Shown: positions 13,824 through 28,363 of the stretch, piece by piece
Layout of the letters: each line of letters starts with the position of its first letter
Numbering within the stretch: position 1 is the first letter of the stretch
The notes under the pieces: generated by a model
Databases searched by the model: none
What the model saw: the letters and a program-made list of their open reading frames with translations, nothing else
What the model was told of the DNA's origin: nothing
Made by a program: the position numbers and the translations under genes
Origin: a virus
Taxonomy: Duplodnaviria; Heunggongvirae; Uroviricota; Caudoviricetes
Reading direction: 5' to 3' (one strand)
Length of the DNA: 40,159 nucleotides
IMG/VR virus record: IMGVR_UViG_3300029983_000009
Location: 128,001 to 168,159 of that record

Positions 13824-13876
13824 ATCAAACTTTTTATATATTATCATATATAAATTATAAATGTTTCAAACTTTAA

Positions 13877-13884
13877 TAGGTTTG
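13877..13884 (+). promoter_or_regulatory. TAnnTTTG box (TAGGTTTG) upstream of the ssDNA-binding-protein gene
   Basis: Matches the Bacteroidetes sigmaA -7 consensus. Lies 41 nt upstream of the ATG. Confidence 0.3.
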
Positions 13885-13925
13885 GAATATTTAAAGCTAA
13901 AAGGCTATAAAAAAAAATTAAAGGC

Positions 13926-14897
13926 ATGAAAGAATTTGAAAATGTCGATTTATTCGACGCAATTGACGCACAAAGCGAAACTCTAGATTTTCTAGAAAAA
14001 AAAGGCGGTAGTTTAGATGGTATTTATCGTCCAAAAATTACTGACAAAAAGAAAGGTTATGTTGCTACTATTAGGTTTTTACCTAATTTAACAAAAGATG
14101 GTAAAGTATCTTTATCTGCAATTGAAAAACATCAGCATTATGTTGATTTTAAAAATCATCCAGAACTTCAAGGTTACTATGATTGTATGAAAAATTTCAC
14201 AGATAAATGTGATATTTGTACTATGTATTGGAAGTTGAAAAACTCAAAAAACGCATCTGAAGTTGAAAAAGCTGAATTGATTAGTAGAAGTACTAAGTAT
14301 TATTCATATATTTTAGTAATTGAAGATGAACAAAATCGTGATTCAGAAGGTAAGATTTTAATCTATCCTTATGGTTACAAAATCAAAGAAAAAATCAAAG
14401 ATCAAAAAGATGGTATCTCAGGTGATCCTTGCAATGTATTTGATTTGGCGAATGGTAAAGACTTCAAATTAGTTATGAAACAACTTGGTGAATATCCTAA
14501 TTATGATTCTAGTACTTTCTTGGAAGTATCTCCTATCAAAATTATGACTCCAAAAGGATTAGCTAAGGTTCCAGTTGAAGTTGATGAAAAAACAGGAAAA
14601 AATAGAATTACTAATCCTAAAGTTAAAGAAAAAGTAATGTCATTTTTGAAAGAACGTACTGTTGATCTTGAAGATCATCAACCAAAAGAATGGCAAGCTG
14701 AAGATAAATATAAAGTATCTCAAATACTTGATATAATTTCTGGCAATGAAACATCATTTGCAAAGAAAGAAGCTGAAAACTCATCACATGATAATGTTTC
14801 TACAAAAGAATCAAAAAATGTTAAAAGCAATGAAGATACTTTTGGTGGAGATGATGATGATGCAAATAATTTCTTTGACATTGACAGTGAAGAATAA
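13926..14897 (+). CDS. T4 gp32-type single-stranded DNA-binding protein
   Basis: VATIRFLP matches the AVIRFLP motif of gp32. H-x17-C-x7-C-x2-C (HQHYVDFKNHPELQGYYDCMKNFTDKCDIC) matches the gp32 zinc site. The region YYSYILVIEDE..EGKILIYPYGYKIKEKI matches SYWANILVVKDP..EGKVFKYRFGKKIWDKI. Acidic tail DDDDANNFFDIDSEE. Confidence 0.85.
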   Translation: MKEFENVDLFDAIDAQSETLDFLEKKGGSLDGIYRPKITDKKKGYVATIRFLPNLTKDGKVSLSAIEKHQHYVDFKNHPELQGYYDCMKNFTDKCDICTMYWKLKNSKNASEVEKAELISRSTKYYSYILVIEDEQNRDSEGKILIYPYGYKIKEKIKDQKDGISGDPCNVFDLANGKDFKLVMKQLGEYPNYDSSTFLEVSPIKIMTPKGLAKVPVEVDEKTGKNRITNPKVKEKVMSFLKERTVDLEDHQPKEWQAEDKYKVSQILDIISGNETSFAKKEAENSSHDNVSTKESKNVKSNEDTFGGDDDDANNFFDIDSEE

Positions 14898-14914
14898 AAT
14901 GTATAACATATAAA

Positions 14915-14950
14915 TAAAAAAAGTCACTATTAATAGTGACTTTTTTTTAT
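14915..14950 (+). terminator. hairpin plus T9 terminator downstream of the ssDNA-binding-protein gene
   Basis: AAAAAAGTCACTATTAATAGTGACTTTTTTTTT, a perfect palindrome. Confidence 0.55.
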
Positions 14951-15000
14951 TAAAAATATTAAATTTATAATAAATAATGTTAAATTTATAATAAACAAAA

Positions 15001-15053
15001 AAAGACAATATAATCCAATGTTAATTTAACATTAGAATATATTGTCTTTTTTG
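15001..15053. terminator. long imperfect hairpin with flanking A- and T-tracts
   Basis: GACAATATA...TATATTGTC outer stem with an AATGTTAA/TTAACATT inner stem. T-tract on the plus strand, A-tract serving the minus gene. Confidence 0.45.
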
Positions 15054-15063
15054 TTTATATCAA

Positions 15064-15420
15064 TTATGCAACTGCAGTTGTTGTAGTAGTTGTAATTGGC
15101 GCTAAAGTTGTTGTAGTTGTAGCTGGTGCTAAAGTTGTTGTATTAGTAGTAGTTGGATATGCATAAATACTAACTGTTCCTGTTACTACTGTATTACCAG
15201 ATAAATAACTATAATCAACATAAACATCATTATCAACTGGTAATGTAGTTCCTGTAATCATTTGATCATCTATAGTTCTCATTCCAGTAATTTGAAATCC
15301 TGGATAATTTAAAATTTCTGATTGGTTTTCATGAAATTTATATCCTTCACCCCAAGGTGTGGTACTTCCAGTTGGTTGATAGCTAAAAAATGCTCCATCT
15401 ATAATTTTAGTTCTTTTCAT
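15064..15420 (-). CDS. small protein with a Thr-rich tail (TTTNTTTLAPATTTTTLAPITTTTTT)
   Basis: ORF. Its low-complexity tail resembles the fibre linkers. Confidence 0.5.
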   Translation of the reverse strand: MKRTKIIDGAFFSYQPTGSTTPWGEGYKFHENQSEILNYPGFQITGMRTIDDQMITGTTLPVDNDVYVDYSYLSGNTVVTGTVSIYAYPTTTNTTTLAPATTTTTLAPITTTTTTAVA

Positions 15421-15543
15421 ATTTTTAATTTATTTTTTTAATTCTATTTCTCTTATATATTAAATTAAAAAACTCATTTTTAATTTAATTTTAAATTTCA
15501 CTTTAAAAATTAATATATATATTAAATTAAAAACAATAATTTT

Positions 15544-16398: not shown

Positions 16399-16719
16399 AT
16401 GAAATATATTAAATCATTTGAAAAAAAATTAACTTTAGAAGAAAAAGACAGAATAGGACATTATGTTATAATAAATCCTATACATGCTACTCCTAATGAA
16501 AGAAAATTTTTTAATAATAATATTGGTAAAATAGTAGGAATAAATATAAATCCAATTGGAAAAGAGAACTTAATAAAAGTAGAATACGATAAAGATATAA
16601 TTCCTTTTAATGTAATATTAGGTAAAGATAATACATATTTAGTTAAAAATTACGAAATAACAAATGAAAATCAAGATGAATTGAAATCTATATTATCATC
16701 AAAAAAATTCAATTTATAA
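16399..16719 (+). CDS. MKxIKTYE...KFN(I/L) family protein
   Basis: MKYIKSFEKK ... KKFNL. Carries the G(D/H)YV small-domain subfamily motif. Confidence 0.6.
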   Translation: MKYIKSFEKKLTLEEKDRIGHYVIINPIHATPNERKFFNNNIGKIVGININPIGKENLIKVEYDKDIIPFNVILGKDNTYLVKNYEITNENQDELKSILSSKKFNL

Positions 16720-17001
16720 ATGAAACACCTTAAAACATATGAAATGGTTCATACATATCCAAAAGAAGGAGATTATGTAATAATTAAATCTGAACAATAT
16801 ATAACCAAAAACCCAGAATTTTACGAAGAATCAAAGAATAAAATTTTTAAAATTGATTCTATCGAAGATGATTATCATTTTTTTATATATTGTAAGTCAA
16901 TAGGATATACTGCAGAATTTCCAATGTCAGAATTGAAATATTGGTCTGATAACGAAGATGAATTAAAAGTTTATCTTGATACAAATAAATTCAATCTATA
17001 A
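16720..17001 (+). CDS. MKxIKTYE...KFN(I/L) family protein
   Basis: MKHLKTYEMV ... NKFNL. GDYVII motif. Confidence 0.6.
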   Translation: MKHLKTYEMVHTYPKEGDYVIIKSEQYITKNPEFYEESKNKIFKIDSIEDDYHFFIYCKSIGYTAEFPMSELKYWSDNEDELKVYLDTNKFNL

Positions 17002-17002
17002 T

Positions 17003-17464
17003 ATGAAATATATTAAAACATATGAAAAAAAGACAATGAAGATTAGTGATTTAAAAAAATCTAATAACACATTATATACCATAGCTAATAGATTTAAAAA
17101 CCTTTTATCAGAAATTAAAAAATTAGAAATAACAGAGGAAAATAAAACTACTCTTAATATGAGAATTGATTCATATGAAAAGATTATTATAGATTATAAT
17201 TATTACTCAGATTGCTTATTTGAAATTGTATTATATTTAGATTTTGATTATAACTATAGATTAGATACTGTTATTCAAGTAAAATCGGTATATAATCAAA
17301 TTCTATATGATTTAATAAATTCAATTTTTAATATTTATATGATATACAATAGTAATAATAATTTTGGTACTTATATAATACCGTCAGATAAAATTATTGA
17401 CGGATTGACTAATTTAGAAAAAAGTTTTTATGCAACAATAAATTCTGAAAAATTCAATTTATAA
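17003..17464 (+). CDS. MKxIKTYE...KFN(I/L) family protein
   Basis: MKYIKTYEKK ... EKFNL. The ATG at 17003 lies 2 nt after the upstream stop. The track ORF starts earlier, at 16976. Confidence 0.55.
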   Translation: MKYIKTYEKKTMKISDLKKSNNTLYTIANRFKNLLSEIKKLEITEENKTTLNMRIDSYEKIIIDYNYYSDCLFEIVLYLDFDYNYRLDTVIQVKSVYNQILYDLINSIFNIYMIYNSNNNFGTYIIPSDKIIDGLTNLEKSFYATINSEKFNL

Positions 17465-17465
17465 A

Positions 17466-17813
17466 ATGAAACATATCAAAACATATGAAAATATTAGTAA
17501 TTATGAAATAAAAATAGGAGATTATGTATTAGCATATATTCAAGGATATAGTGGGATGGATGCTAAAGAATTTATGCATTTTATAAATAATAATATTGGA
17601 ATAATTATAGAAATAGAAAATCCTGATAAAAAGTTTGATAATGTATCAATAGAATATAAAAATGTACCTGAAGATATACGTCATCCATGGTTTAGATATG
17701 ATGAAATAAATGATAAAATATTCAAAAAAGTTAGATATGGAAGAATAGTAGCAAACTCTATAAATAAAGAAGATGTCGAAGGAATATTAATGACAAAAAA
17801 ATTCAATATATGA
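17466..17813 (+). CDS. MKxIKTYE...KFN(I/L) family protein
   Basis: MKHIKTYENI ... KKFNI. GDYVLAYI motif. Paralogous to the minus-strand member at 25401..25736. Confidence 0.6.
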   Translation: MKHIKTYENISNYEIKIGDYVLAYIQGYSGMDAKEFMHFINNNIGIIIEIENPDKKFDNVSIEYKNVPEDIRHPWFRYDEINDKIFKKVRYGRIVANSINKEDVEGILMTKKFNI

Positions 17814-18220
17814 TATATATTAAAGAGGATGAAAATACTGATGATAATATGGTTGGATATCCAAATTTGATACCAGGACAAATGTATATGGAAGATGGTA
17901 CAATTTGCTGTTACATAGGTAACAATAATATGTCAAAATATAATTTGGTATTTTTATTATTTCATTATGACAAAACAATAGATAATTATTTTTTCATTGA
18001 ATGGGTAAATTGGTTAAAATTTACTCCTCTTAATATTGATATTAAAGACTATATTATTAAAAATAACGTAGTACTTAAAACAATTGAATCTATAAAAAAG
18101 CATGAATTTTCTGGTAAAGAAAATGGAAATAGTTTAAATTTGATAAAAAATATTTATAATTCATTATTAGATGATATAGACATATCTATGTTTATAAATA
18201 TAAATAAATTTAATATATAA
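17810..18220 (+). CDS. KFN(I/L) family protein with a variant N-terminus
   Basis: MIYIKEDENT ... NKFNI. ATGA overlap with the upstream stop. Confidence 0.5.
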   Translation: MIYIKEDENTDDNMVGYPNLIPGQMYMEDGTICCYIGNNNMSKYNLVFLLFHYDKTIDNYFFIEWVNWLKFTPLNIDIKDYIIKNNVVLKTIESIKKHEFSGKENGNSLNLIKNIYNSLLDDIDISMFININKFNI

Positions 18221-18240
18221 AATAAATAAATAAATATAAA

Positions 18241-18501
18241 ATGTTAAAAAAATTCGAAAATTTCAATAAAATAACAGAAGATTTCAGACCTGGCATATCA
18301 GCACAAGCATTTTGGGAAAGCAAAGATGAATTGAGAAAAATAATAATTAACAATTTACTGCAAGACAAAACATTAACATTAGATAATTATATAAAATCAA
18401 ATCAATCATATATCAACAGACTTAGTATAGATGATAGAAAAGAGTTTGATGAAGTAATTGACAACTTAAATTTACCAGTTTGGCAAAAACAAAGAAGATA
18501 A
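18241..18501 (+). CDS. hypothetical small protein inside the array
   Basis: MLKKFENFNK... It lacks the KFNI end. Confidence 0.45.
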   Translation: MLKKFENFNKITEDFRPGISAQAFWESKDELRKIIINNLLQDKTLTLDNYIKSNQSYINRLSIDDRKEFDEVIDNLNLPVWQKQRR

Positions 18502-18506
18502 AAAAT

Positions 18507-18971
18507 ATGAAACACGTTAAAGTATATGAGTCTAAAGATGAAGAACAAATGAAAAAAGATCAAGAAAAAGTTGATTTACTAGGAGATTTGTTGAATGAAA
18601 ATCCAAATAATGAAACACATGATTTTTATGTATTTCTTGCATCAGATGTTTTCAAAGAAACAAAAAGTGGGTTATTTAAAAAGGAGTTAAACATTGAAAA
18701 TATGGTTAGAATAACACCTGACTATAACAGCGTAATGTCAATGGCTGGAATAGAAATGAGAGAAAGATTTCAACCAGACACAAAAATGTATCATATATGG
18801 TTACCAAAAGAAGAAAGAGAAGATATTGAAGGCAAAAGTTCAAGTACAATGGAACCTTGGTTAATCAAAATGATAGATAAGAATAAAAAAAGAGGAGGAG
18901 ATGAGCATGGTAAAAAAGTTTATAATGATGCAATTCAAAGAAGAAAAGATTTATCAAAATTTAATATATGA
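18507..18971 (+). CDS. MKxIKTYE...KFN(I/L) family protein
   Basis: MKHVKVYESK ... SKFNI. Start placed at the internal ATG at 18507, where the track ORF begins at 18480. Confidence 0.55.
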   Translation: MKHVKVYESKDEEQMKKDQEKVDLLGDLLNENPNNETHDFYVFLASDVFKETKSGLFKKELNIENMVRITPDYNSVMSMAGIEMRERFQPDTKMYHIWLPKEEREDIEGKSSSTMEPWLIKMIDKNKKRGGDEHGKKVYNDAIQRRKDLSKFNI

Positions 18972-19231
18972 AAATTAAAAAATTTAATGGGGTAAAAGAT
19001 AAATATTTATATGTATCTCCATTTACTGAAGAAGGTATTTATTATATTTGTAATGAATGCTATAGTAATAAATTAAGAATGATAAAAAAAGGAGGATTTC
19101 AAACTCCAAGTTACGAGTGTGATAATTGTGGTTCGACTGTTTATGCCCCAATGAATCTAACTCCTAATAGATACAAAGAATATCTAATAGATAAAATAAT
19201 TAGGAATAAAACAAAAAAATTCAACATATAA
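18968..19231 (+). CDS. KFN(I/L) family protein with a zinc-ribbon
   Basis: MKIKKFNG... with CNEC...CDNC and the end KKFNI. ATGA overlap. Confidence 0.55.
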   Translation: MKIKKFNGVKDKYLYVSPFTEEGIYYICNECYSNKLRMIKKGGFQTPSYECDNCGSTVYAPMNLTPNRYKEYLIDKIIRNKTKKFNI

Positions 19232-19233
19232 TA

Positions 19234-19614
19234 ATGGAAAAATACACTAAAATATATGAAGATATTAAAAAGGAAAAATGGGATAATTATTGTATAATTA
19301 TAAGTTATTCTAATGTAGATGATGGTGAAGATCCAGATGTTTATCTTTGTGATAATGAAAATCAAGGATTTATATATCTTAAAAATTTAATTTATAATTC
19401 ATATCATAATCAAATTGATATAGATTTTTACAAATCAATGCTAATTGAATATAGTAGTGCAGAAAATCTTAATGACTTATATGAAATTTATATGTCTAGA
19501 AATAGAGATATAAAAGTTATGCTAATTTATTGTGAATTAAATGAAAACATTGAACTTGAAAAATGGATAATAGATTTTGAAATAGTAAACACATCTAGTA
19601 AATTTAATTTATAA
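19234..19614 (+). CDS. KFN(I/L) family protein
   Basis: MEKYTKIYED ... SSKFNL. Confidence 0.55.
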   Translation: MEKYTKIYEDIKKEKWDNYCIIISYSNVDDGEDPDVYLCDNENQGFIYLKNLIYNSYHNQIDIDFYKSMLIEYSSAENLNDLYEIYMSRNRDIKVMLIYCELNENIELEKWIIDFEIVNTSSKFNL

Positions 19615-19615
19615 T

Positions 19616-20281
19616 ATGAAACACATAAAATATTTTGAGAATATATATGATATAAATAAAGATGAAAATAGACTTTTAACTTTAAGCTATCATGAAAATG
19701 AATTAACTTTACCTATATTTAAAAAATTTCTTGATGAACATAAAAACATTAATATTAATGTTCAAAATGCTGATCGTGGTTGGACTCCTTTATTAATTGC
19801 GGTTAATAATAATGGATTTGAATTTGCTAAAATGCTTCTTGATAGAGGAGCAGATCCAAATATTTTTTCTAATACACCAGAACTTGGAAAATTTCCATTT
19901 GATAATGACTCAGTAATGAAAAAAATGATAGATACTGCACATGAATTAGATCATCAATCTAATGATTTTATAAATGAGTATTGGAATTTTTTAGATACAT
20001 TAATTCCATTTACAGATTTAGATAAACAGACAGAAATTTTCAAAAGAACTCCATTAATTATAGTTGCAGAAAATATAGGAATTAGAATAAATACTGAAGT
20101 TGGTTTAAAATTAATGAAAAATTTTCTGAAAGAAAAACCAAATTTGAGTATAAAAGATAATAAAGATTATGACTTTATAGATCATTTGATTAGAAAATCA
20201 AATTATGATATTATTGAAGAATTAAGTAATGAATTTAATAGTGTTGATTTATTATATAAATCTAAAAAATTTAATATATAA
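19616..20281 (+). CDS. MKxIKTYE...KFN(I/L) family protein carrying ankyrin repeats
   Basis: MKHIKYFENI. Ankyrin signature GWTPLLIAVNNNGFEFAKMLLDRGADPN. The end is KSKKFNI. Confidence 0.65.
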   Translation: MKHIKYFENIYDINKDENRLLTLSYHENELTLPIFKKFLDEHKNININVQNADRGWTPLLIAVNNNGFEFAKMLLDRGADPNIFSNTPELGKFPFDNDSVMKKMIDTAHELDHQSNDFINEYWNFLDTLIPFTDLDKQTEIFKRTPLIIVAENIGIRINTEVGLKLMKNFLKEKPNLSIKDNKDYDFIDHLIRKSNYDIIEELSNEFNSVDLLYKSKKFNI

Positions 20282-20299
20282 AAAATATTTAATAATACA

Positions 20300-20338
20300 A
20301 AAAAAGCATAAAGATAATTTACTTTATGCTTTTTTTAT
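20300..20338 (+). terminator. hairpin plus T-tract terminating the family array
   Basis: AAAAAGCATAAAG-ataattta-CTTTATGCTTTTTTT. Confidence 0.55.
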
Positions 20339-20359
20339 TTTTAATCAATAATAAATTAT

Positions 20360-20367
20360 TATCTTTG
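20360..20367 (+). promoter_or_regulatory. TAnnTTTG box (TATCTTTG)
   Basis: Lies 19 nt upstream of the ATG at 20387. The same octamer recurs at 24034 and 28082. Confidence 0.35.
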
Positions 20368-20386
20368 TATTCAAATCACTGAATTT

Positions 20387-20710
20387 ATGGAAAATATAAA
20401 TATATCAGATAAAGAACAATACACATTTGAAAAATATCCAAAATTATCATCCAGTAAATTTACATATGAAAATAGTTGTAGAAACATAGGATGTCAATTT
20501 CCAGATTTTTATAAAATTGAAAGCGGAAATGATAGAAATTGGACTATACTTGGTTATACATTAAATCCACCTTTTGATAGTAATGTAAAAGAGCCTCTTG
20601 CTATAATGTATGAAAATACTAAAACATTTGATATTGTTTGGTATCATCACGATTTAGATATGTTTAAAGAAGTGAAAGTTAGTATATTAAAAAATAACAT
20701 TAATAGATAA
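20387..20710 (+). CDS. hypothetical protein (107 aa)
   Basis: ORF preceded by a TATCTTTG box at 20360-20367. Confidence 0.5.
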   Translation: MENINISDKEQYTFEKYPKLSSSKFTYENSCRNIGCQFPDFYKIESGNDRNWTILGYTLNPPFDSNVKEPLAIMYENTKTFDIVWYHHDLDMFKEVKVSILKNNINR

Positions 20711-20711
20711 T

Positions 20712-20939
20712 ATGGAAAATGGATTTTATTTTTGTGTTCTAAAACAATATCCTGATGAACAATTTAAAGTTAAAGTAGAATGGAGAGGAGTTAATAGGAC
20801 TAGAATAACTTTTCCAAACGGCACTCCAACTATAGATGAATGTGGATATTCTAAAATATACTTTACTGATGAATTTCTTAATGTATATGAATTATTAGAT
20901 TATATTCGGCCAATTAATCATGAAGATTTATTAGATTAA
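20712..20939 (+). CDS. hypothetical protein (75 aa)
   Basis: ORF 1 nt after the upstream stop. Followed by a terminator hairpin. Confidence 0.45.
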   Translation: MENGFYFCVLKQYPDEQFKVKVEWRGVNRTRITFPNGTPTIDECGYSKIYFTDEFLNVYELLDYIRPINHEDLLD

Positions 20940-20944
20940 AAAAT

Positions 20945-20985
20945 AAAGATTAGTAATAAATTACTAATCTTTATAAATTTTTAAT
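20945..20985. terminator. bidirectional hairpin between convergent genes
   Basis: AGATTAGTAA-taaa-TTACTAATCT followed by a T-rich tract. Confidence 0.45.
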
Positions 20986-22194
20986 CAATTCTTTAAAATG
21001 TTTATCAAATATAACTTTAACTTTATCATAATTAGACTTAGAGCATACTATTGAATCATGAACAGTAAATAATACAATATTAGGATACGTTTCATATATT
21101 TCTTTTAATACCACATTAAATATGAAATTACTTTCCATTTTTTGTAGTTCATGAGATAATTCTTTATAATTTTTTTTATTTTCTTTGAATTCTAAAATAT
21201 ATTCATAAACAGATGGATATAATTTCTGAAATATCTTATTCAATTTTTTGTTTGTTTTTAAATTATTACCAAACAATACTTTATACATAAGTTCTTTAGC
21301 TTCATATCTTTCAGTTAACTTAGAATTCTTAATAATATCTTCATATATTAATCCTTCTTTTACTAACTCAAAATATCTTTTCGTGTCACCATTTATTTCA
21401 GATAAATCTTTTTTTAATAGAACTGCAAAGAATAATGGCTGAGAGTTTTTAATGTCAATTTCAGAAATCATCTCATTCTCAATACTCAAATATTGTGTTC
21501 TAATTTCTTTTTTAAGAATTGTAAAATTTGTATGAAATCTACCATAATCATCAAAATTAAAATAAATACTTTTGGAATTTATATTTTCAATTGATATTAA
21601 ATTTTTCTGATATTTAGGCTCACACATTTCTCCGCTTTTTCTTCTATCATTAAGAAGCTTCAATGCACCATCATAATCAATATCAACCTTAGTTAATGAT
21701 TCTATTATTTTTACTCTTATATCTACTTGGATAGAGCTAAAACTCATCTCTGTGATAGATGTTTCATACCTATTATTGATTTTTTTCAATAACATATTAT
21801 CATAGTTTTTCCATCTTAATACATCATATGTATACTCAATATTTAATTTATATGTCTTAGTTTTCTTACCTACACAATAATTAGATACCATGCTCATAAA
21901 TCCTTGCTCACATAAATAATTTATATAATAATTATAATGTTCTCCATATCTTTTTTTTAATATGATTGATGATAATTTAAACTTAGAATCAGTATTATTA
22001 CTAAAATAATATTTGATAATAAGCTCATGTACAATATTAATAAGATATGAGCATTTTAAATTTATACCTTTATATTCTAATTTTTTTTGCTGAGTTAAAT
22101 ACTGAAAGTCCTTTGAAACAAATTGCCAAATATAATCACTAGATTTTGAAACCACTGAATGTAATTTTTTCTTTAATATAGAAGATTTGAGCAT
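20971..22194 (-). CDS. family A (Pol I-like) DNA polymerase, catalytic domain only, with no exonuclease domain
   Basis: 407 aa. Motif A ISEIDIKNSQPLFFAVLLKKD matches Klenow VSADYSQIELRIMAHLSRD. NGDTKRYFE matches EGKDIHRATA. Motif B TERYEAKELMYKVLFG matches SEQRRSAKAINFGLIYG. Motif C LFTVHDSIV matches MQVHDELV. The motifs fall in the order A, B, C with Pol I-like spacing. Confidence 0.6.
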   Translation of the reverse strand: MLKSSILKKKLHSVVSKSSDYIWQFVSKDFQYLTQQKKLEYKGINLKCSYLINIVHELIIKYYFSNNTDSKFKLSSIILKKRYGEHYNYYINYLCEQGFMSMVSNYCVGKKTKTYKLNIEYTYDVLRWKNYDNMLLKKINNRYETSITEMSFSSIQVDIRVKIIESLTKVDIDYDGALKLLNDRRKSGEMCEPKYQKNLISIENINSKSIYFNFDDYGRFHTNFTILKKEIRTQYLSIENEMISEIDIKNSQPLFFAVLLKKDLSEINGDTKRYFELVKEGLIYEDIIKNSKLTERYEAKELMYKVLFGNNLKTNKKLNKIFQKLYPSVYEYILEFKENKKNYKELSHELQKMESNFIFNVVLKEIYETYPNIVLFTVHDSIVCSKSNYDKVKVIFDKHFKELIKNL

Positions 22195-22479: not shown

Positions 22480-22521
22480 ATAATAAATATAATTTTATTT
22501 TGATTATCTAAATAATTGTAT

Positions 22522-22529
22522 TATCTTTA
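22522..22529 (+). promoter_or_regulatory. TAnnTTTA variant box (TATCTTTA)
   Basis: Lies 24 nt upstream of the ATG at 22554. Confidence 0.25.
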
Positions 22530-22553: not shown

Positions 22554-23000
22554 ATGAAAAGATTTATAACCATCTCTCAAAATGAAAAAGATTTTTTTAA
22601 AATGATTAATCAAACTGAAAGCGGATTTGATTTAATTGCTACAACAGATCATGCAATGGAATCATTATTAAAGAATATAAATTTTAATAATCAAGATGAT
22701 GAAATTTATATTGCATGGCAGCAAAAATTCAGAACTGAGAACTATTCATTATATAGAAAATGTATTTTTTCAAAACCAGAAAATAATTTTTTTAAATCAC
22801 CAGGATTATACTCAATCAACAAAAAATGTGGAATGAAAATGCATGTTAGTTGTTCTGGTATATCTTATTTTACATCTAATAAAACATTTATAAATAAAAA
22901 TGTTAGATATTCTACTCACACATATAAAGATTCAAAATTATTAACTAGAATGCTAAAAATTGGAGAGTTAAACTCAACTGAATATGAAAATAACTATTAA
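22554..23000 (+). CDS. hypothetical protein (148 aa)
   Basis: ORF preceded by a TATCTTTA box. Confidence 0.5.
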   Translation: MKRFITISQNEKDFFKMINQTESGFDLIATTDHAMESLLKNINFNNQDDEIYIAWQQKFRTENYSLYRKCIFSKPENNFFKSPGLYSINKKCGMKMHVSCSGISYFTSNKTFINKNVRYSTHTYKDSKLLTRMLKIGELNSTEYENNY

Positions 23001-23989: not shown

Positions 23990-24033
23990 TTTATATATTT
24001 ATCTCTTAATTTTCATATATCACAAAAAACATG

Positions 24034-24041
24034 TATCTTTG
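24034..24041 (+). promoter_or_regulatory. TAnnTTTG box (TATCTTTG) driving the micro-ORF and repeat locus
   Basis: Identical octamer to 20360. No long ORF lies downstream. Confidence 0.35.
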
Positions 24042-24087
24042 CATTGTAATTAAAACTCAATATATAAACTCTAAAAAATTATTTAAT

Positions 24088-24123
24088 ATGATAAAAAGTT
24101 GTAATTCACCGCCAAGGCAATAA
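24088..24123 (+). other. micro-ORF 1, encoding MIKSCNSPPRQ
   Basis: ATG...TAA. GC-rich core TCACCGCCAAGG inside an AT-rich spacer. A TATCTTTG box lies about 50 nt upstream. Confidence 0.3.
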
Positions 24124-24304
24124 ACTATAAATTATAATAAACTAATAGATAAAGCCAAAAAAGCAAAATTATAGATAAATAATAGATAATATAGAAAATA
24201 TAGAAAATATAGAAAATATGAAAACTAGTTGCAACTCACCGCCAAGGTAATAGATATAAAATATAAAATATAAAATATAATAGATAAAGCCAAAAAAGCA
24301 AAAA
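24097..24304 (+). repeat. ~130-bp direct repeat in two copies, with embedded 9-nt and 8-nt tandem triplets
   Basis: AGTTGYAAYTCACCGCCAAGG...TAATAGATAAAGCCAAAAAAGCAAAA occurs at 24097-24168 and again at 24227-24304. Between the copies lie (AAAATATAG)x3 and (AATATAAA)x3. Confidence 0.6.
24218..24250 (+). other. micro-ORF 2, encoding MKTSCNSPPR
   Basis: Second copy of a ~130-bp direct repeat. Within the CNSPPR codons it differs from copy 1 only at two synonymous third positions (tgt/tgc and aat/aac). Confidence 0.3.
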
Positions 24305-24305
24305 T

Positions 24306-24344
24306 GAAAAAAAAGTCATTCTTAAATATAAGAATGACTTTTTC
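24306..24344. terminator. bidirectional hairpin serving the micro-ORF locus on the plus strand and gene 24362..24838 on the minus strand
   Basis: AAAAAAAAGTCATTCTTA-aatat-TAAGAATGACTTTTT. Confidence 0.5.
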
Positions 24345-24361
24345 CATATAATTTAATTGTA

Positions 24362-24879: not shown

Positions 24880-25404
24880 TTATATATTGAATTTATCAGC
24901 ATTTAATATATATGATAATTCTTTTTTTACATTAGAACTAAAATTGTCTGAATATTTTTTATAATATTCTTTAAATTTTGATAAATCTGTGAAATTAGAT
25001 ACTACTTCAATTATTTTATTATCCAATTTATCAATCAAATCAGGTTTATAATATTTATAAATTTTATCCTCTATCTTAAATATTGAATTTCTATTAACTT
25101 GTGTAGAAGAATTAATATTTTTTTCTTTAATAAATTTATCTATATTATTGTAAAAACTATTTTTATCAGAATATGAATTATTTATTCCAATAAGATTATT
25201 GAAAATTGTTCTATATTCAAATCTATCGTATTCTAGTTCAGATAAAGTTAAGATATCAATTTTATCTAAAATGTTCAATTTTTTTATATAATCAGTCATA
25301 AAATCAGTGAGTAAATTATCTTCTTCTGTAGTTAAATATTTATATTCTGAGCGTTTATTGTAATCAGATGACTCTCTTCCTTCAAATGTTTTTAAATATT
25401 TCAT
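24880..25404 (-). CDS. MKxIKTYE...KFN(I/L) family protein
   Basis: MKYLKTFEGR ... ADKFNI. Confidence 0.55.
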   Translation of the reverse strand: MKYLKTFEGRESSDYNKRSEYKYLTTEEDNLLTDFMTDYIKKLNILDKIDILTLSELEYDRFEYRTIFNNLIGINNSYSDKNSFYNNIDKFIKEKNINSSTQVNRNSIFKIEDKIYKYYKPDLIDKLDNKIIEVVSNFTDLSKFKEYYKKYSDNFSSNVKKELSYILNADKFNI

Positions 25405-25736
25405 ATATTAAATTTTTTTGTTTCTAACTTCATTTTTAATTCCTCAATTGTTTTACTATGTTCAACTATTCTACGAATATCAAAATTTCTTGTACATAAA
25501 TCATTTTTAATATTAAAATAACTTTTTATACTTTCAGGTACGTCATCATATAATACATAAATATCAGTATTTTTATGCCTATTATCAATACTGTATATTT
25601 TTCCAATCGTACTATTTATAAAATTTTCTATATCTGTCAGTTTTTGAGTATACTTAGATATATTAATTTTAACTAATACATAATCTCCAACTGTTAATTC
25701 ATCTTCTATATTTTCATAAAATTTAAAAATTTTCAT
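25401..25736 (-). CDS. MKxIKTYE...KFN(I/L) family protein
   Basis: MKIFKFYENI...GDYVLV... ending TKKFNI. ATGA overlap with the downstream member. Confidence 0.55.
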   Translation of the reverse strand: MKIFKFYENIEDELTVGDYVLVKINISKYTQKLTDIENFINSTIGKIYSIDNRHKNTDIYVLYDDVPESIKSYFNIKNDLCTRNFDIRRIVEHSKTIEELKMKLETKKFNI

Positions 25737-25787
25737 AACATATATATAATTTTTGTAGTATTGTTTTTTTATTCCAAAATATTGTTG

Positions 25788-25795
25788 TATATTTG
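25788..25795 (+). promoter_or_regulatory. TAnnTTTG box (TATATTTG)
   Basis: Lies 38 nt upstream of the ATG at 25834. Confidence 0.3.
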
Positions 25796-25833
25796 TTTAA
25801 AATATAGTACTTAAATCACTAAATAATAATATC

Positions 25834-26061
25834 ATGAAAAAGAAGGCAATAATTTTAATCTCGGTTATGATTGGATATCCTATCATTGGTTGTTTAATTG
25901 GCGCATTAATGTATTCATTTACAGGTGCATTATTAGGATTTTTATTAGGTGTAGTATTAGATTTTATTTTTATGGAAATGTTAAAATGCATAACTCATGG
26001 AGAAAAACTATATGAAGAATATGAAAACATTGGTAGTACATCCAATCGACAGAACGACTGA
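25834..26061 (+). CDS. small two-helix membrane protein (75 aa), holin-like topology
   Basis: Hydrophobic stretches IILISVMIGYPIIGCLIGALMY and LLGFLLGVVLDFIFM. A TATATTTG box lies at 25788-25795. Confidence 0.4.
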   Translation: MKKKAIILISVMIGYPIIGCLIGALMYSFTGALLGFLLGVVLDFIFMEMLKCITHGEKLYEEYENIGSTSNRQND

Positions 26062-26551: not shown

Positions 26552-26560
26552 AAATTAAAA

Positions 26561-27337
26561 ATGAAATTACAAGAAATTACTAATAAAATAATAAAAAGAA
26601 TATCAGAATATATAGATTTTGACGTAAATGAAATATTTGATCAGTCAGATTGTATCACCATATATGGAGGAGCAGTTAGAGATAGTATAGCAGAACTTGA
26701 AATACATGATATAGACATACTTTGTATGCCAAAATCATCAGAGAAATTGAGAAATTTTTTAATTGATTATAAAAATTATAAAATTCTAGATTTCTATGAT
26801 ATTGATACATTAAACATGTACAAAGGAATTTCAATAATTCAAAATCCATGGACATTAATAAATAAAAATAATAAAATAATTCAAATAATTAGACCAAAAT
26901 TTGGGGACGCACGATTTCAGAATGCTGATGAACTTTATAAAACTGCGTATTATTCTCTAATTAAAAATGTTGATTTATCTTGTTGTGGAGTTTTTATTGA
27001 AAAAAAAAATAATATAATATCACTCAAAGAATCATGCAAAAATTCTATTGTTCAATGTATATCAAAAACATTTGAAATTAATAAATGGGCAACTTTATAT
27101 AATAGTGATAGAACAAATTTCAGAGAAGATAAGTTAATCAGAAGAGGATGGATTAATTTAAATCCTGATATATATTATTCAGCATCAAATAAAATTAAAA
27201 GAAATAAAATAAAATTAAAATATCAAAGAATGATGAAAATAATTTTATTAGAATTAGAATTTGAATACGATTATAAAATATGGACAGATGAGGAATATAT
27301 TAAATATTTAATGTTTTCTCTTCCTACTCCATTTTAA
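26561..27337 (+). CDS. Pol-beta-type nucleotidyltransferase with the GGAVRD head motif, like a CCA-adding enzyme or poly(A) polymerase
   Basis: IYGGAVRDSIAELEIHDIDIL gives GGAVRD followed nine residues later by DID. This is the signature of the class II tRNA nucleotidyltransferase head. 258 aa, shorter than full CCA enzymes. Confidence 0.5.
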   Translation: MKLQEITNKIIKRISEYIDFDVNEIFDQSDCITIYGGAVRDSIAELEIHDIDILCMPKSSEKLRNFLIDYKNYKILDFYDIDTLNMYKGISIIQNPWTLINKNNKIIQIIRPKFGDARFQNADELYKTAYYSLIKNVDLSCCGVFIEKKNNIISLKESCKNSIVQCISKTFEINKWATLYNSDRTNFREDKLIRRGWINLNPDIYYSASNKIKRNKIKLKYQRMMKIILLELEFEYDYKIWTDEEYIKYLMFSLPTPF

Positions 27338-27362
27338 AATAAATAAATAAATAAAATAAAAT

Positions 27363-27677
27363 ATGAAAACAAAATCAGAAATAATTAAAGAAGAAATTGA
27401 ATTAAAGAAAAAAGAACTTGAACAATTAGAAAAAGAGGAAAAATTAGAATTACGACACTCAGTTATTAAAGATTTATCTGAATATACAACACAAGAAAAA
27501 TGTGATTATTTTGATAAAATATACAATCGTGCAGAACTAGTGTTAAAGTTAGCTGAAGAAGAATCAGATGAAGAAGACACTGATCGTGATTCATGGGAGA
27601 AAATGATGGAAACATTAGCAAGAGATACTGAGTCATTTTGGACTTATTATAATAATATATTTGAAGGAGACGAATAA
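27363..27677 (+). CDS. coiled-coil acidic protein, paralog 1
   Basis: MKTKSEIIKEEIELKKKELEQLEKEEKLEL...SFWTYYNNIF. Paralogous to the next ORF. Confidence 0.5.
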   Translation: MKTKSEIIKEEIELKKKELEQLEKEEKLELRHSVIKDLSEYTTQEKCDYFDKIYNRAELVLKLAEEESDEEDTDRDSWEKMMETLARDTESFWTYYNNIFEGDE

Positions 27678-27680
27678 AAA

Positions 27681-27989
27681 ATGAAAACAGAAATAGAAAG
27701 TCTTAGAGCAGAAATTGAAAGAAAGAAAGAAGAACTTGAACAATTAGAATTACAAGAAAAATTAGGAGTTAAAGGATTATCAATTAAAGATTTATCTGAA
27801 TTTACAGATTTTGAAAAATGTAATTTTTTTGATTATTTATATAAATCATCATTAGACAGATTAAATAATACAATAGAAAATGAATATGAAGACGATGATG
27901 ATGAACATTATGCATGGGAGGAATGTATGTTAATACTAGCTCGTGATAAAGATTCTTTTTGGACTTATTATAATAAATTAATAAAATAA
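27681..27989 (+). CDS. coiled-coil acidic protein, paralog 2
   Basis: MKTEIESLRAEIERKKEELEQLELQEKLGV...SFWTYYNKLIK. Confidence 0.5.
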   Translation: MKTEIESLRAEIERKKEELEQLELQEKLGVKGLSIKDLSEFTDFEKCNFFDYLYKSSLDRLNNTIENEYEDDDDEHYAWEECMLILARDKDSFWTYYNKLIK

Positions 27990-28029
27990 AAATAAATTAT
28001 AATTATTTTTATATAATCATTAAAAAAGT

Positions 28030-28065
28030 ATAAAAGTCAATCATTTTTGATTGACTTTTTTTTTA
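28030..28065 (+). terminator. hairpin plus T9
   Basis: AAAAGTCAATCA-tttt-TGATTGACTTTTTTTTT. Confidence 0.55.
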
Positions 28066-28093
28066 TACCAATAATTATGTATATCTTTGCAAT

Positions 28094-28363
28094 ATGAAAA
28101 AAAAAGATAAAATACAGCAAGTAATTGATTTATCAGAACAAAAAACAACATTATTAAAAGAGTTGAAAGAGTCTGTTATATATGAACAGAAAAAATACGA
28201 CTTAGTAAGGTTTGATATGGGATTTAATAAATCTCACATTTTATTTAATATATCTAAAAAAACAGAAGTCACATCAGGAAGGCTTGATAGTATTAAATCA
28301 TATATAAATTTAAGGAATATTGATATTACCACTATCTATAACAATATCATGTTATTATCATGA
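28094..28363 (+). CDS. hypothetical protein (89 aa)
   Basis: ORF. Confidence 0.45.
   Translation: MKKKDKIQQVIDLSEQKTTLLKELKESVIYEQKKYDLVRFDMGFNKSHILFNISKKTEVTSGRLDSIKSYINLRNIDITTIYNNIMLLS

What the first reader, a model, noticed from the sequence alone, without database searches (positions are those of the whole stretch)
13860..28100. Regulatory grammar points to a Bacteroidetes-type host: recurring TAnnTTTG boxes and hairpin plus T-tract terminators
The octamer TATCTTTG recurs verbatim upstream of genes or units at 20360, 24034 and 28082. Variants occur at 13877, 22522, 25788 and, on the minus strand, at 7737 and 7765. This matches the Bacteroides/Flavobacteria sigmaA -7 element, and no -35/-10 pattern is evident. 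Nearly every convergent gene boundary carries an A-tract, hairpin and T-tract module. Ankyrin-repeat cargo further hints at a host-associated lifestyle, such as a symbiont. Alternatively this is a eukaryotic giant virus. The TAAATG junctions superficially resemble the poxvirus late promoter.
Basis: partly seen in the sequence, partly recalled or inferred. Interest (0 to 1): 0.5.

Follow-up and report, generated by a model that had tools for sequence, protein, structure and literature searches.

The report
Bacteroidetes-type promoters in a huge phage

Summary
The window (about 23% GC) belongs to the "Mahaphage" clade of 0.6-0.7 Mb phages, whose hosts were predicted to be Bacteroidetes (PMC7162821). 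The degenerate TAnnTTTG is not enriched window-wide (78 vs 84 expected). The real signal is narrower: six intergenic sites (20360, 22522, 24034, 25788, 28082, 32679 minus), mostly TATCTTTG, share a T-rich -33 region. They are conserved at orthologous positions in diverged relatives and are separated cleanly by a PWM trained on other genomes. A seventh is a canonical TTTG-N20-TATTTTTG at 7737 (minus). The 13877 variant is not supported. In a complete 735-kb relative, TAHHTTTG is enriched 3.8-fold upstream of genes, G is excluded from the inner positions, and a spike at 4 nt before ATG implies leaderless mRNAs. A Bacteroides phage shows the same enrichment; a Clostridium phage does not. Shine-Dalgarno sequences are absent. 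Hairpin plus T-tract terminators mark all seven convergent junctions. The dominant upstream motif is a different one, TTTTTTATATATAA-like, in about 60% of upstream regions. It is probably a phage-specific (T4-late-like) promoter. The giant-virus and poxvirus readings are rejected. Verdict: an ordinary promoter type in a new place; the host inference is supported.

The parts
20360..20367 (+). Class A promoter box TATCTTTG. It lies 20 nt before the ATG at 20387, directly after terminator 20299-20336. It drives a two-gene cassette (20387-20939) that is absent from relatives L003 and L005.
   Evidence: PWM score 19.7 bits; this site has no orthologue in the training set, so the score is independent.
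22499..22529 (+). Class A composite promoter TTTG-N19-TATCTTTA, 25 nt before the ATG at 22554.
   Evidence: L003 has TTTG-N19-TATCTTTG, L005 has TTTG-N19-TATCTTTA and L013 has TATCTTTG at the orthologous site. PWM score 18.9 bits.
24011..24041 (+). Class A promoter TTTC-N19-TATCTTTG at the head of a gene-free unit (24046-24343) that holds two micro-ORFs.
   Evidence: It is identical in architecture in three lineages. PWM score 22.1 bits. The same box plus leader heads a normal gene in the unrelated contig L037.
24088..24123 (+). Micro-ORF 1, MIKSCNSPPRQ*.
   Evidence: The SCNSPP core is kept in all copies, and nucleotide changes fall only at third codon positions.
24218..24250 (+). Micro-ORF 2, MKTSCNSPPR*.
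25788..25795 (+). Class A promoter box TATATTTG (TATCTTTG in relative L036) with TTTTTTTATTC-N12 upstream. It lies 38 nt before a conserved small membrane-protein ORF at 25834-26061.
   Evidence: PWM score 22.4 bits.
28082..28089 (+). Class A promoter box TATCTTTG, 4 nt before the ATG at 28094. The predicted transcription start is the A of the ATG, giving a leaderless mRNA. It follows terminator 28032-28064.
   Evidence: the box and the 4-nt spacing are identical in L005 and L036. PWM score 22.6 bits. A 4-nt spike is seen genome-wide in LR756501.1.
32679..32686 (-). It heads a minus-strand unit: a 5' leader with hairpin 32577-32603, a 67-aa ORF (32320-32523) and the tRNA cluster.
   Evidence: PWM score 23.6 bits. 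Conserved in L036.
7737..7768 (-). Canonical composite TTTG-N20-TATTTTTG, 30 nt before the ATG at 7707.
   Evidence: L003 keeps TTTG-N20-TATCTTTA. It is not scored by the T-run-type PWM, so support is weaker.
13877..13884 (+). TAGGTTTG. This is NOT a promoter box; it lies inside the long conserved gp32 leader.
   Evidence: Not conserved as TAnnTTTG in 28 relatives. It has G at both inner positions, which violates TAHHTTTG (PMC6847099). TAGGTTTG has 0 of 16 copies in upstream regions of LR756501.1.
7799..7812 (+). Class B box TTTTTTATATATAA, 21 nt before the GTG start of the fibre-like gene 7833-9116.
   Evidence: exact 14-mer. Conserved in L003.
13062..13075 (-). Class B box ATTTTTATATATAA, about 25 nt before the ATG (13037) of the 663-aa fibre-like gene.
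   Evidence: The same element is at the orthologous position in L005, L013, L014 and L023.
13830..13843 (+). Class B-like box CTTTTTATATATTA at the head of the gp32 leader.
   Evidence: The AAACTT-T-run-TATATA arrangement is conserved across relatives.
15514..15521 (+). Class B core TATATATA, 22 nt before the ATG at 15544.
31468..31481 (+). Class B box TTTTTTATATATAA, 14 nt before the ATG at 31496, directly after hairpin 31412-31473.
   Evidence: conserved in L036.
32712..32725 (+). Class B box TTTTTTATATATAA, 14 nt before the ATG at 32740. It is back-to-back with the class A box at 32679(-).
   Evidence: conserved in L036.
38902..38915 (+). Class B box TTTTTTATATATAA, 3 nt before the ATG at 38919 (ankyrin ORF).
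37814..37821 (.). Class B core TATATATA in the divergent region between 37793(-) and 37858(+).
6544..6584 (.). Bidirectional terminator (A-tract, hairpin, T-tract) at a convergent junction.
9130..9160 (.). Bidirectional terminator at a convergent junction.
14916..15052 (.). Two terminator hairpins (14916-14947 and 14998-15052) between gp32 and 15064-15420(-).
20299..20336 (+). Terminator preceding the 20360 promoter.
20945..20972 (.). Low-GC hairpin at the convergent junction 20939/20971.
   Evidence: It falls below the scan's G-C threshold.
24308..24343 (.). Bidirectional terminator ending the micro-ORF unit. Conserved in relatives.
28032..28064 (.). Terminator preceding the 28082 promoter.
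31412..31473 (+). Long hairpin plus T8, immediately before the class B box at 31468.
31756..31791 (.). Bidirectional terminator between 31496-31768(+) and the minus-strand tRNA cluster.
35592..35624 (.). Hairpin terminator at the convergent junction 35588/35653.
31795..32040 (-). Three tRNA genes (31795-31866, 31875-31945, 31956-32040).
13926..14897 (+). T4-type gp32 ssDNA-binding protein; the anchor used to find relatives.

Best explanation
WHAT IT IS. The window is a segment of a huge (about 0.7 Mb) phage of the Mahaphage clade that replicates in a Bacteroidota host.

LAYOUT. Its transcription units are laid out as modules: an intrinsic terminator (A-tract, hairpin, T-tract), then a promoter, then a short A-rich leader without Shine-Dalgarno, then the ATG. 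Two promoter types are used.

CLASS A (six strong sites plus one canonical composite in the window). This is the Bacteroidetes housekeeping-sigma (sigmaA/sigmaABfr) promoter. It has a -7 box TAHHTTTG, here almost always TATCTTTG, at -12 to -5. Upstream it has a T-rich or TTTG -33 element 19-20 nt away and an A-rich -24 to -17 segment. It fires 5 nt after the G. At 28082 this makes a leaderless mRNA starting at the A of the ATG. These sites precede small ORFan cassettes, a micro-ORF RNA and the tRNA operon. They are most likely host-RNAP-dependent early units (inferred).

CLASS B. This is a T-run + TATATATAA box centred about 20-28 nt before the ATG. It is the majority signal and precedes fibre-like genes, gp32 and arrays of a paralogous protein family. 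It most likely is a phage-specific middle/late promoter read by a phage-encoded factor, in the manner of the T4 late 'TATA box' and gp55. This step is inferred; my sub-confidence is about 0.45.

SHOWN VERSUS INFERRED. Shown: sequence, conservation, enrichment, orientation, spacing, controls. Inferred: which polymerase or sigma reads each class, and the timing.
For: IDENTITY. gp32 is 42-47% identical to LR756501-4 and LR745206. The 444-aa ORF 35653-36987(-) hits only those genomes, at 48-61%. A 75%-identical homologue of a window protein lies on a 711-kb contig. Hosts of that group were predicted to be Bacteroidetes (PMC7162821).

CLASS A.
- Footprints at orthologous sites in L003, L005, L013 and L036.
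- Extended consensus.
- PWM separation, 18.9-23.6 vs 13.6 bits.
- Pooled family: TATCTTTG 12 sense-upstream vs 1.05 expected.
- Composite TTTG-N18-21-TAHHTTTG: 11 of its 17 copies lie in upstream DNA, which is 3% of the sequence.
- Whole 735-kb genome: TAHHTTTG 76 vs 20.1 (p 2e-22); G-containing inner variants 2 of 268; distance peak 10-30 nt; discrete spike at 4 nt.
- Controls: Bacteroides phage B40-8 10 sense, 0 antisense, 1.3 expected; Clostridium phage c-st 1 vs 2.8.
- These match the published consensus T-12 A-11 H H T-8 T-7 T-6 G-5, the weak -33, and the AT-rich motifs centred at -18 and -28 (PMC6847099; PMC9723704).

TRANSLATION. SD-like tetramers occur in 1 of 74 genes vs 8% of random 15-mers; A is about 60% at -20 to -9. 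SD-core usage is 3% here, 8% in B40-8 and 56% in c-st.

TERMINATORS..

CLASS B.
- Exact 14-mer four times, all sense and upstream.
- Top enriched 8-mer.
- EM motif in 60-65% of 134 upstream regions, median 20 nt to the ATG.
- Strand asymmetry 16 vs 3.
- Conserved upstream of the fibre-like gene in four lineages.
- 102 of 115 genomic TATATATA sites are upstream in LR756501.1.
- Not enriched in c-st.
- Candidate gp55-like 124-aa protein in the 735-kb relative: HMM E 0.004, top PHROG 'late sigma transcription factor', hhalign E 9e-5.
Against: - No transcript data: no start site is mapped.
- The window alone is under-powered. TAnnTTTG is 78 vs 84 window-wide, and TAHHTTTG in sense upstream regions is 4 vs 1.6, p 0.07.
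- Many family loci are orthologous, so pooled p-values overstate independence.
- The -33 element is TTTG in only 2 of 7 window sites.
- The boxes are far more uniform (TATCTTTG) than host promoters, which would also fit a phage-encoded sigma.
- No direct host link was found. The only hit in species-representative genomes is a contig binned into a Promethearchaeota MAG.
- At 23% GC the window is lower than most Bacteroidota.
- For class B the gp55-like candidate is weak (probability 59%), was not recovered in the window's own lineage, and no gp45 or gp33 was detected.
- The class B core is TATATATA, not T4's TATAAATA, which is only 3.5-fold enriched.
Confidence: 0.75

Rival explanations
1. The TATCTTTG boxes are real promoters, but they are read by a phage-encoded sigma factor or another phage factor rather than by the host housekeeping sigma. 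Their resemblance to the host consensus then says less about the host.
For: The boxes are almost invariant (TATCTTTG) with an extended conserved context, unlike the degenerate host consensus. Huge phages are reported to encode their own sigma-70-type factors (PMC7162821). TAATTTTG and TATCTTTG dominate in LR756501.1.
Against: The motif obeys the host-specific rules (TA..TTTG, no G inside, G at -5 as judged from the leaderless spike). A cultured Bacteroides phage without obvious sigma genes shows the same enrichment. A phage sigmaA-like factor would in any case have to work with a Bacteroidota core enzyme, so the host inference largely survives. No sigma gene lies in the window.
Confidence: 0.15
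2. Class B is not a promoter. It is AT-rich filler: (TA)n low-complexity sequence and terminator T-tails that accumulate in the intergenic DNA of a very AT-rich genome.
For: The motif is AT-only and partly palindromic. The T-run often is the tail of the preceding terminator. No upstream element was found.
Against: It is equally concentrated in the 32%-GC relative, where 102 of 115 sites are upstream, and absent as a signal in a 26%-GC Clostridium phage. It has a preferred distance of 10-25 nt to the ATG, strand asymmetry, exact 14-mer recurrence and conservation at orthologous sites while the flanks diverge.
Confidence: 0.12
3. The element is an archaeal virus, or uses archaeal/eukaryal-type transcription. 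Class B would be a TATA box about 25 nt upstream of leaderless genes, which would explain the lack of Shine-Dalgarno.
For: The TATA-like consensus TTTATATA is centred about 20-28 nt before ATGs. The only hit among species-representative genomes is in a Promethearchaeota MAG. TFIIB is listed among huge-phage-encoded factors in a figure legend of PMC7162821.
Against: Bacterial-type hairpin plus T-tract terminators are strongly enriched. The Bacteroidetes -7 boxes show the correct fine rules. gp32 is T4-type, and the clamp-loader and DNA polymerase homologues are T4-like. The clade's hosts were predicted to be Bacteroidetes, and Lak phages infect Prevotella (PMC7162821). A single metagenomic bin is weak evidence and is most likely mis-binning of low-GC DNA.
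Confidence: 0.03
4. It is a eukaryotic giant virus with poxvirus-like TAAATG late promoters.
For: Very low GC, ankyrin-repeat ORFs and some TAAATG at gene starts.
Against: TAAATG is under-represented (71 vs 89.9 +/- 8.7). Only 6 gene starts carry it, and there it is a TAA stop abutting an ATG in tandem gene arrays. All detectable relatives are phages. Genes are densely packed and overlapping, and terminators are bacterial.
Confidence: 0.01
5. The boxes are chance matches in AT-rich DNA.
For: Window-wide counts do not exceed shuffles.
Against: Intergenic concentration, orthologous conservation, PWM separation, genome-wide statistics and controls.
Confidence: 0.02

Closest known systems
Bacteroidetes housekeeping-sigma (sigmaA / sigmaABfr) promoters, -33 TTTG / -7 TAnnTTTG (refined to TAHHTTTG)
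   Same: The -7 octamer matches. G is excluded at the two inner positions. The -33 is weak or T-rich, 19-20 nt upstream, and the spacer is AT-rich. The box lies 10-30 nt before ATGs. A minor leaderless subclass has the ATG at the predicted +1. All of this occurs together with leaders that lack Shine-Dalgarno and are A-rich (PMC6847099, PMC9723704).
   Different: It is found in a phage, not a cell. The box is nearly invariant (TATCTTTG), with an extended conserved context (T-run, ATT(T)C, N12, box, Y-A). The -33 is usually TTTT or TTTC rather than TTTG. It serves only about 15-30% of transcription units.
Phage T4 late promoters (8-bp TATA box TATAAATA at -10, read by gp55 with gp33 and the gp45 clamp)
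   Same: Class B is a short AT-only 'TATA box' with no -35-like element and AT-rich sequence downstream. It lies upstream of structural-type genes on either strand, in a phage that has T4-type gp32, clamp loader and DNA polymerase (PMC2988020). A weak gp55-like candidate exists in a complete relative.
   Different: The core is TATATATA(A) preceded by a T-run, not TATAAATA. The gp55 homology is marginal and was not shown in the window's own lineage. No gp33 or gp45 was detected. The host RNAP would be the divergent Bacteroidota enzyme.
Mahaphage clade of huge phages, including Lak megaphages (Al-Shayeb et al. 2020)
   Same: The closest and, for one protein, the only homologues are in the 462-735 kb genomes. 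Near relatives lie on contigs of 330-711 kb. The inferred host phylum is the same.
   Different: GC is lower (21-25% vs 26-32%). Protein identity to the published complete genomes is only 42-61%, so this is a distinct lineage. Terminase and capsid phylogeny was not examined because those genes are outside the window.
Bacterial intrinsic (Rho-independent) terminators, bidirectional type
   Same: Each has a G+C-containing hairpin flanked by an A-tract and a T-tract, placed at convergent gene ends and before promoters.
   Different: Nothing notable. They are generic to bacteria and so carry no phylum-level information, contrary to what the finding's title implies.

Membership tests
Bacteroidetes sigmaA -33/-7 promoter | -7 octamer TAnnTTTG | tested here: met
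   Six sites carry TATCTTTG, TATCTTTA or TATATTTG, plus TATTTTTG at 7737(-). One of them (22522) ends in A instead of G, and its orthologues alternate G and A.
Bacteroidetes sigmaA -33/-7 promoter | No G at the two inner positions (TAHHTTTG; PMC6847099) | tested here: met
   All seven accepted window sites comply. In LR756501.1, G-containing variants account for 2 sense-upstream hits out of 268 copies, against 76 of 840 for H-only variants. 13877 (TAGGTTTG) fails and is rejected.
Bacteroidetes sigmaA -33/-7 promoter | -33 element TTTG/TTG about 19-21 nt upstream of the -7 box | tested here: inconclusive
   TTTG is at N19 (22522) and N20 (7737), TTG at N20 (32679) and TTTC at N19 (24034). The other sites have a T-run at that place. 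The literature itself calls the -33 weak. The composite is 11-20-fold enriched upstream in the family and in LR756501.1.
Bacteroidetes sigmaA -33/-7 promoter | Enriched upstream of genes, in sense orientation, over the AT-rich background | tested here: met
   Family: TATCTTTG 12 vs 1.05. LR756501.1: TAHHTTTG 76 vs 20.1. The positive control is enriched and the negative control is not. The window alone is under-powered.
Bacteroidetes sigmaA -33/-7 promoter | Transcription starts about 5 nt downstream of the final G | not testable with these tools
   There are no RNA data. Indirect support comes from a discrete spike of gene starts exactly 4 nt after the box and the conserved 4-nt spacing at 28082 in three lineages.
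Bacteroidetes sigmaA -33/-7 promoter | Recognition by the sigmaABfr-type holoenzyme of a Bacteroidota host | not testable with these tools
   The host is inferred from relatives (PMC7162821) and from the translation and transcription signals. No direct host link was obtained.
T4-type late promoter / gp55 system | 8-bp TATA box with consensus TATAAATA about one helical turn before the start | tested here: not met
   The core is TATATATA(A) with a 5' T-run. TATAAATA itself is only 3.5-fold enriched, against 18.5-fold for TATATATA. The position relative to the start site is unknown.
T4-type late promoter / gp55 system | No conserved -35-like element | tested here: met
   There is no information content upstream of the T-run.
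T4-type late promoter / gp55 system | Phage-encoded gp55-like sigma | tested here: inconclusive
   Candidate at LR756501.1 69450-69824: HMM E 0.004; top PHROG phrog_234 at E 0.19; hhalign E 9e-5, probability 59%. It was not recovered in the window's lineage.
T4-type late promoter / gp55 system | gp45 sliding clamp and gp33 co-activator | tested here: inconclusive
   phmmer with T4 gp45 found nothing in LR756501.1, although gp44 and gp43 homologues are present. gp33 was not searched. Single-sequence searches are weak for these proteins.
Sigma-70 -35/-10 promoter (TTGACA-N17-TATAAT) | Excess of two-hexamer matches over shuffles | tested here: not met
   206 vs 211.8 and 199 vs 199.9.
Poxvirus late promoter (TAAATG at the start codon) | TAAATG enriched and placed at gene starts | tested here: not met
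   71 vs 89.9 +/- 8.7. Six gene starts carry it, all as stop/start abutments.
Intrinsic terminators | Stable hairpin followed by a T-tract, at the ends of units | tested here: met
   16 vs 2.0 expected in 20-40 kb. Present at all 7 convergent junctions.
Mahaphage clade | Clustering by large terminase / major capsid phylogeny | not tested
   Those genes are not in the window. Membership is inferred from gp32 and a clade-restricted 444-aa protein.

The most novel reading that the evidence does not exclude
Huge Bacteroidota phages of this clade may run a two-tier programme. Only a minority of units use the host sigmaA promoter. The majority would use a TATA-like T-run + TATATATAA box read by a minimal (124-aa) gp55-like sigma. 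That would extend the T4 late-transcription paradigm to the divergent Bacteroidota RNA polymerase. The late-class units would include large tandem arrays of a protein family defined only by conserved termini (N-terminal MK.IK.FE, C-terminal KFN[IL]), possibly a targeting signal.
Probability: 0.35. Interest if true: 0.55.

Novelty: new member of a known kind. Interest (0 to 1): 0.35.

Why it matters
For the finding as posed, little is new. Bacteroidetes-type promoters in a phage whose clade was already predicted to infect Bacteroidetes is a confirmation.

It is still useful. It shows that promoter fine structure (TAHHTTTG with G exclusion, and the 4-nt leaderless spike), together with the absence of Shine-Dalgarno, can serve as a sequence-only host-phylum indicator for uncultured huge phages, with working positive and negative controls.

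It also gives the first explicit promoter map I am aware of for this clade. I found none in the papers searched, though that is not proof that none exists. The map includes a dominant TATA-like class and a candidate gp55-like factor, both of which can be tested directly with metatranscriptomes.

Tried and rejected
- Megablast of the region against phage records: no match.
- PHROG and Pfam annotation of genes downstream of class A boxes and of the terminal-motif family: nothing found.
- Sigma-70 scan: no excess.
- De novo EM after masking class B returned only the A-rich leader, not class A, which has too few sites.
- Host evidence from species-representative genomes: a single hit in a Promethearchaeota MAG, judged to be mis-binning.
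- tblastn of the PHROG-7203 protein: only distant Vibrio and Caulobacter phage hits, uninformative for the host.
- T4 gp55 and gp45 single-sequence searches of LR756501.1: nothing.
- Supplement search of PMC7162821 for TFIIB, gp55 or sigma in this clade: not decisive.
- Scan for the gp55-like candidate in the window's own lineage: not recovered.
- RNA structure in the micro-ORF unit: no covariation beyond the terminator. Rfam: only tRNAs.
- Fold search with a confident model of one terminal-motif protein: no PDB match (best E 0.11).
- An upstream 'AACTT' element for class B: rejected, because it is the 3' arm and tail of the preceding terminators.
- The idea that KFNI-stop is a DNA-level class B motif: rejected, because the codons vary synonymously.

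Full report
WHAT THE WINDOW IS.
The window is 20-27% GC throughout and densely packed with about 74 ORFs. Recognisable genes are a T4-type gp32 (13926-14897), two DNA methyltransferases, a GT4 glycosyltransferase and two ankyrin-repeat ORFs. There are three tRNAs on the minus strand.

The best tblastn hits of gp32 are the 634-735 kb 'uncultured phage' genomes LR756501-4 and LR745206 (42-47% identity), with Prevotella phage Lak-C1 further away. The 444-aa ORF 35653-36987(-) has homologues only in those genomes and in LR756500.1 (32-61% identity overall; 48-61% in the 634-735 kb genomes). Closer relatives (gp32 72-97% identical) lie on IMG/VR contigs of up to 501 kb, and one homologue lies on a 711-kb contig. 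Al-Shayeb et al. 2020 state that all genomes over 634 kb, like the Lak phages, are predicted to replicate in Bacteroidetes and fall in the Mahaphage clade (PMC7162821). The window is therefore a piece of a huge phage of that clade. The eukaryotic giant-virus alternative has no support.

CHECKING THE OBSERVATION.
As a statistical statement about the window, however, the claim fails for the degenerate motif:
- TAnnTTTG occurs 78 times against 84.1 +/- 9.3 in shuffles.
- TATCTTTG occurs 7 times against 4.2.

The signal is in the placement.

PHYLOGENETIC FOOTPRINTS.
Relatives L003/L036 and L005 are syntenic with the window at 50-97% protein identity. Findings by site:
- Upstream of g22554: the window, L003 and L005 all have TTTG-N19-TATCTTT(G/A), and L013 has TATCTTTG.
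- Upstream of g28094: the window, L005 and L036 all have a terminator hairpin, a T-run, TATCTTTG and exactly 4 nt before the ATG.
- At 24034: three lineages share TTTC-N19-TATCTTTG plus a conserved leader.
- At 25788: the window's TATATTTG corresponds to TATCTTTG in L036, in the same TTTTTTTATTC-N12 context. It precedes a conserved small membrane-protein ORF at 25834-26061.
- At 32679(-): conserved in L036.
L003 keeps TTTG-N20-TATCTTTA.
- At 13877: TAGGTTTG is not kept as a box in any of the diverged relatives.

A MODEL OF CLASS A.
Eighteen sites give this consensus: T-rich at -36 to -30, A at -29, C at -26/-25, A-rich at -24 to -17, then TATCTTTG at -12 to -5, followed by Y-A. A 36-column PWM trained only on sites from relatives scores six window sites at 18.9-23.6 bits. 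The next-best hit scores 13.6, and the 95th percentile of the maxima of 30 shuffled windows is 18.3. One of the six (20360) has no orthologue in the training set, so its score is an independent validation.

Pooled over 17 loci (about 300 kb):
- TATCTTTG occurs 12 times in sense upstream regions against 1.05 expected. The other TAnnTTTG variants are barely enriched.
- The composite TTTG-N18-21-TAHHTTTG has 11 of its 17 copies in upstream DNA, which is 3% of the sequence.

Caveat: the loci are related, so these p-values overstate independence.

GENOME-WIDE TEST AND CONTROLS.
I assembled the complete 735,411-bp relative LR756501.1 (32% GC, 996 ORFs, 411 upstream regions).
- TAHHTTTG occurs 76 times in sense upstream regions against 20.1 expected (p 2e-22).
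- The seven variants with G at an inner position contribute 2 hits out of 268 copies. This reproduces the TAHHTTTG rule derived from Flavobacterium johnsoniae start sites (PMC6847099).
- Distances from the box to the ATG peak at 10-30 nt, in line with median 5' UTRs of 24-32 nt in Flavobacterium and Bacteroides (PMC9723704).
- There is a discrete spike at exactly 4 nt (five gene starts). With G at -5, that puts the A of the ATG at +1. This is the geometry at 28082, so these are predicted leaderless mRNAs.

Controls:

| Genome | TAHHTTTG sense / antisense (expected) | SD-core usage |
|---|---|---|
| Bacteroides phage B40-8 | 10 / 0 (1.3) | 8% |
| Clostridium phage c-st (26% GC) | 1 / 3 (2.8) | 56% |
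| Window | 4 / 2 (1.6) | 3% |

In the window, 1 of 74 genes has an SD-like tetramer at -18 to -4, against 8% of random 15-mers, and A is about 60% at -20 to -9. That is the Bacteroidetes initiation signature (PMC6847099).

THE SECOND, DOMINANT SIGNAL.
Only about a quarter of the window's upstream regions carry a class A box. The evidence for a second class is as follows.
- The exact 14-mer TTTTTTATATATAA occurs four times (7799, 31468, 32712, 38902). All are on the + strand and all lie 3-21 nt before a + strand start.
- TATATATA is the most enriched upstream 8-mer in the window and in the family.
- An EM search of 134 upstream regions returns ttttTTtaTATATAtAa in 60-65% of them, a median of 20 nt from the ATG.
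- The motif is strand-asymmetric (TTTATATATA 16 sense vs 3 antisense in tandem spacers).
- It is conserved upstream of the 663-aa fibre-like gene in four lineages.
- In LR756501.1, 102 of the 115 TATATATA sites lie in upstream regions.
- It is not enriched in the AT-rich Clostridium phage.

Class B precedes fibre-like genes, gp32 and arrays of a paralogous family. Class A precedes small ORFans, a micro-ORF RNA and the tRNA operon.

The nearest known analogue is the T4 late promoter: an 8-bp TATA box at -10 without a -35 (PMC2988020). The core sequence differs, though. A profile built from gp55 homologues finds one candidate in LR756501.1 (124 aa). Its support is HMM E 0.004, a top PHROG match to 'late sigma transcription factor' at E 0.19, and hhalign E 9e-5 with probability 59%. 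That is suggestive, not proof. It was not recovered from the window's own lineage.

TERMINATORS AND TAAATG.
Hairpin plus T-tract sites number 16 against 2.0 +/- 1.9 expected in 20-40 kb. An A-tract/hairpin/T-tract module sits at each of the seven convergent junctions, and also immediately upstream of the promoters at 20360, 28082 and 31468. These are generic bacterial terminators and say nothing about the phylum.

TAAATG is under-represented (71 vs 89.9). At gene starts it is a TAA stop abutting an ATG in tandem arrays.

VERDICT.
- The host-phylum call is well supported (about 0.8), but it was already the published prediction for the clade.
- The promoter type is known. What is new is its mapping in this phage group, the recognition that it is the minority class, and a candidate late system.

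Nothing here was shown experimentally. Which polymerase or sigma reads each class, and when, is inference.

Noticed in passing
window 16399-20281, 24880-25736(-), 32740-35588, 38919-40091: Seventeen of the 74 ORFs end in K[FY]N[IL]-stop. Seventeen of the 19 occurrences of that tetrapeptide in the 12.4-kaa proteome are at the very C-terminus, and 11 ORFs also start with M[KN].[ILV]K.[FY]. The middles are unrelated, range from 87 to 390 aa and include the ankyrin ORFs. Codons vary synonymously, so the selection is on the peptide. The family is also present in relatives (13 of 38 ORFs in L014) but absent from L001. There are no Pfam or PHROG hits. A confident AF2 model of one member (pLDDT 87.5) puts the motifs at the ends of long terminal helices and has no PDB fold match. 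This may be a targeting or packaging signal; the N-terminus recalls the T4 capsid-targeting sequence, but that is from memory and untested.
   Followed up: partly
window 24046-24343: The class A promoter at 24034 drives a gene-free unit of about 300 nt with two tandem micro-ORFs (MIKSCNSPPRQ*, MKTSCNSPPR*). The SCNSPP core is invariant in six copies from three lineages, and changes fall only at third codon positions. The AT-rich spacers vary by indels. A short AAGCCAAAAAAGC element and the terminator are conserved. There is no RNA covariation and no Rfam hit. The function is unknown.
   Followed up: partly
window 13845-13925 and orthologous sites in L002-L030, L047: The gp32 leader (about 75-85 nt from a class B-like box) carries two or three repeats of AAGGCT(T/A)AA and an invariant AAAGGCAATG at the start codon. 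This is the only SD-like start in the window and is conserved across all relatives. It may be a translational operator analogous to T4 gene 32 autoregulation. Not tested.
   Followed up: no
L047 (JAFGOA010000025.1, 37.7 kb): A contig of this phage family (gp32 66% identical, with the same TATCTTTG boxes) is deposited as part of a 'Promethearchaeota archaeon' MAG. It is most likely a mis-binned phage contig.
   Followed up: partly
window 20971-22194 (-): A conserved 407-aa ORF (63-91% identical in relatives) has no family hit. By eye it carries Pol I-like motifs: GRFHT, D-x-x-SQP, AK...Y...FG and TVHDS. It may be a highly diverged family A polymerase-like protein.
   Followed up: no
window 20282-20970: The cassette of terminator, TATCTTTG promoter, two small ORFs (20387-20939) and terminator is absent from the syntenic relatives L003 and L005. 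It is a moron-like insertion that carries its own host-type promoter.
   Followed up: partly
window 32041-32319 (-): Between the 67-aa ORF and the three called tRNAs lies highly conserved non-coding sequence with small hairpins. One tRNA-like stretch (about 32050-32125) is called by neither ARAGORN nor Rfam.
   Followed up: no
window 9803-10609 (-): The 268-aa ORF has an N-terminal membrane segment and a C-terminus (…GFGLHYSILQW) that looks like an outer-membrane beta-barrel signature. If so, it hints at a Gram-negative host. There is no Pfam hit.
   Followed up: no
L051:19450-19824 (LR756501.1 69450-69824) and L065-L086: A 124-aa protein is conserved at 61-100% identity in 22 viral contigs. 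It is a weak but consistent match to the N-terminal, sigma-region-2-like part of T4 gp55.
   Followed up: partly
window 13023-13469 and 25797-25991: Mechanical ORF lists mislead in two places. The gene after the fibre-like ORF starts at 13113 according to the JGI calls, which opens a promoter-bearing spacer at 13038-13112. The minus-strand ORF 25797-25991 is spurious; the real gene is 25834-26061 on the + strand.
   Followed up: yes
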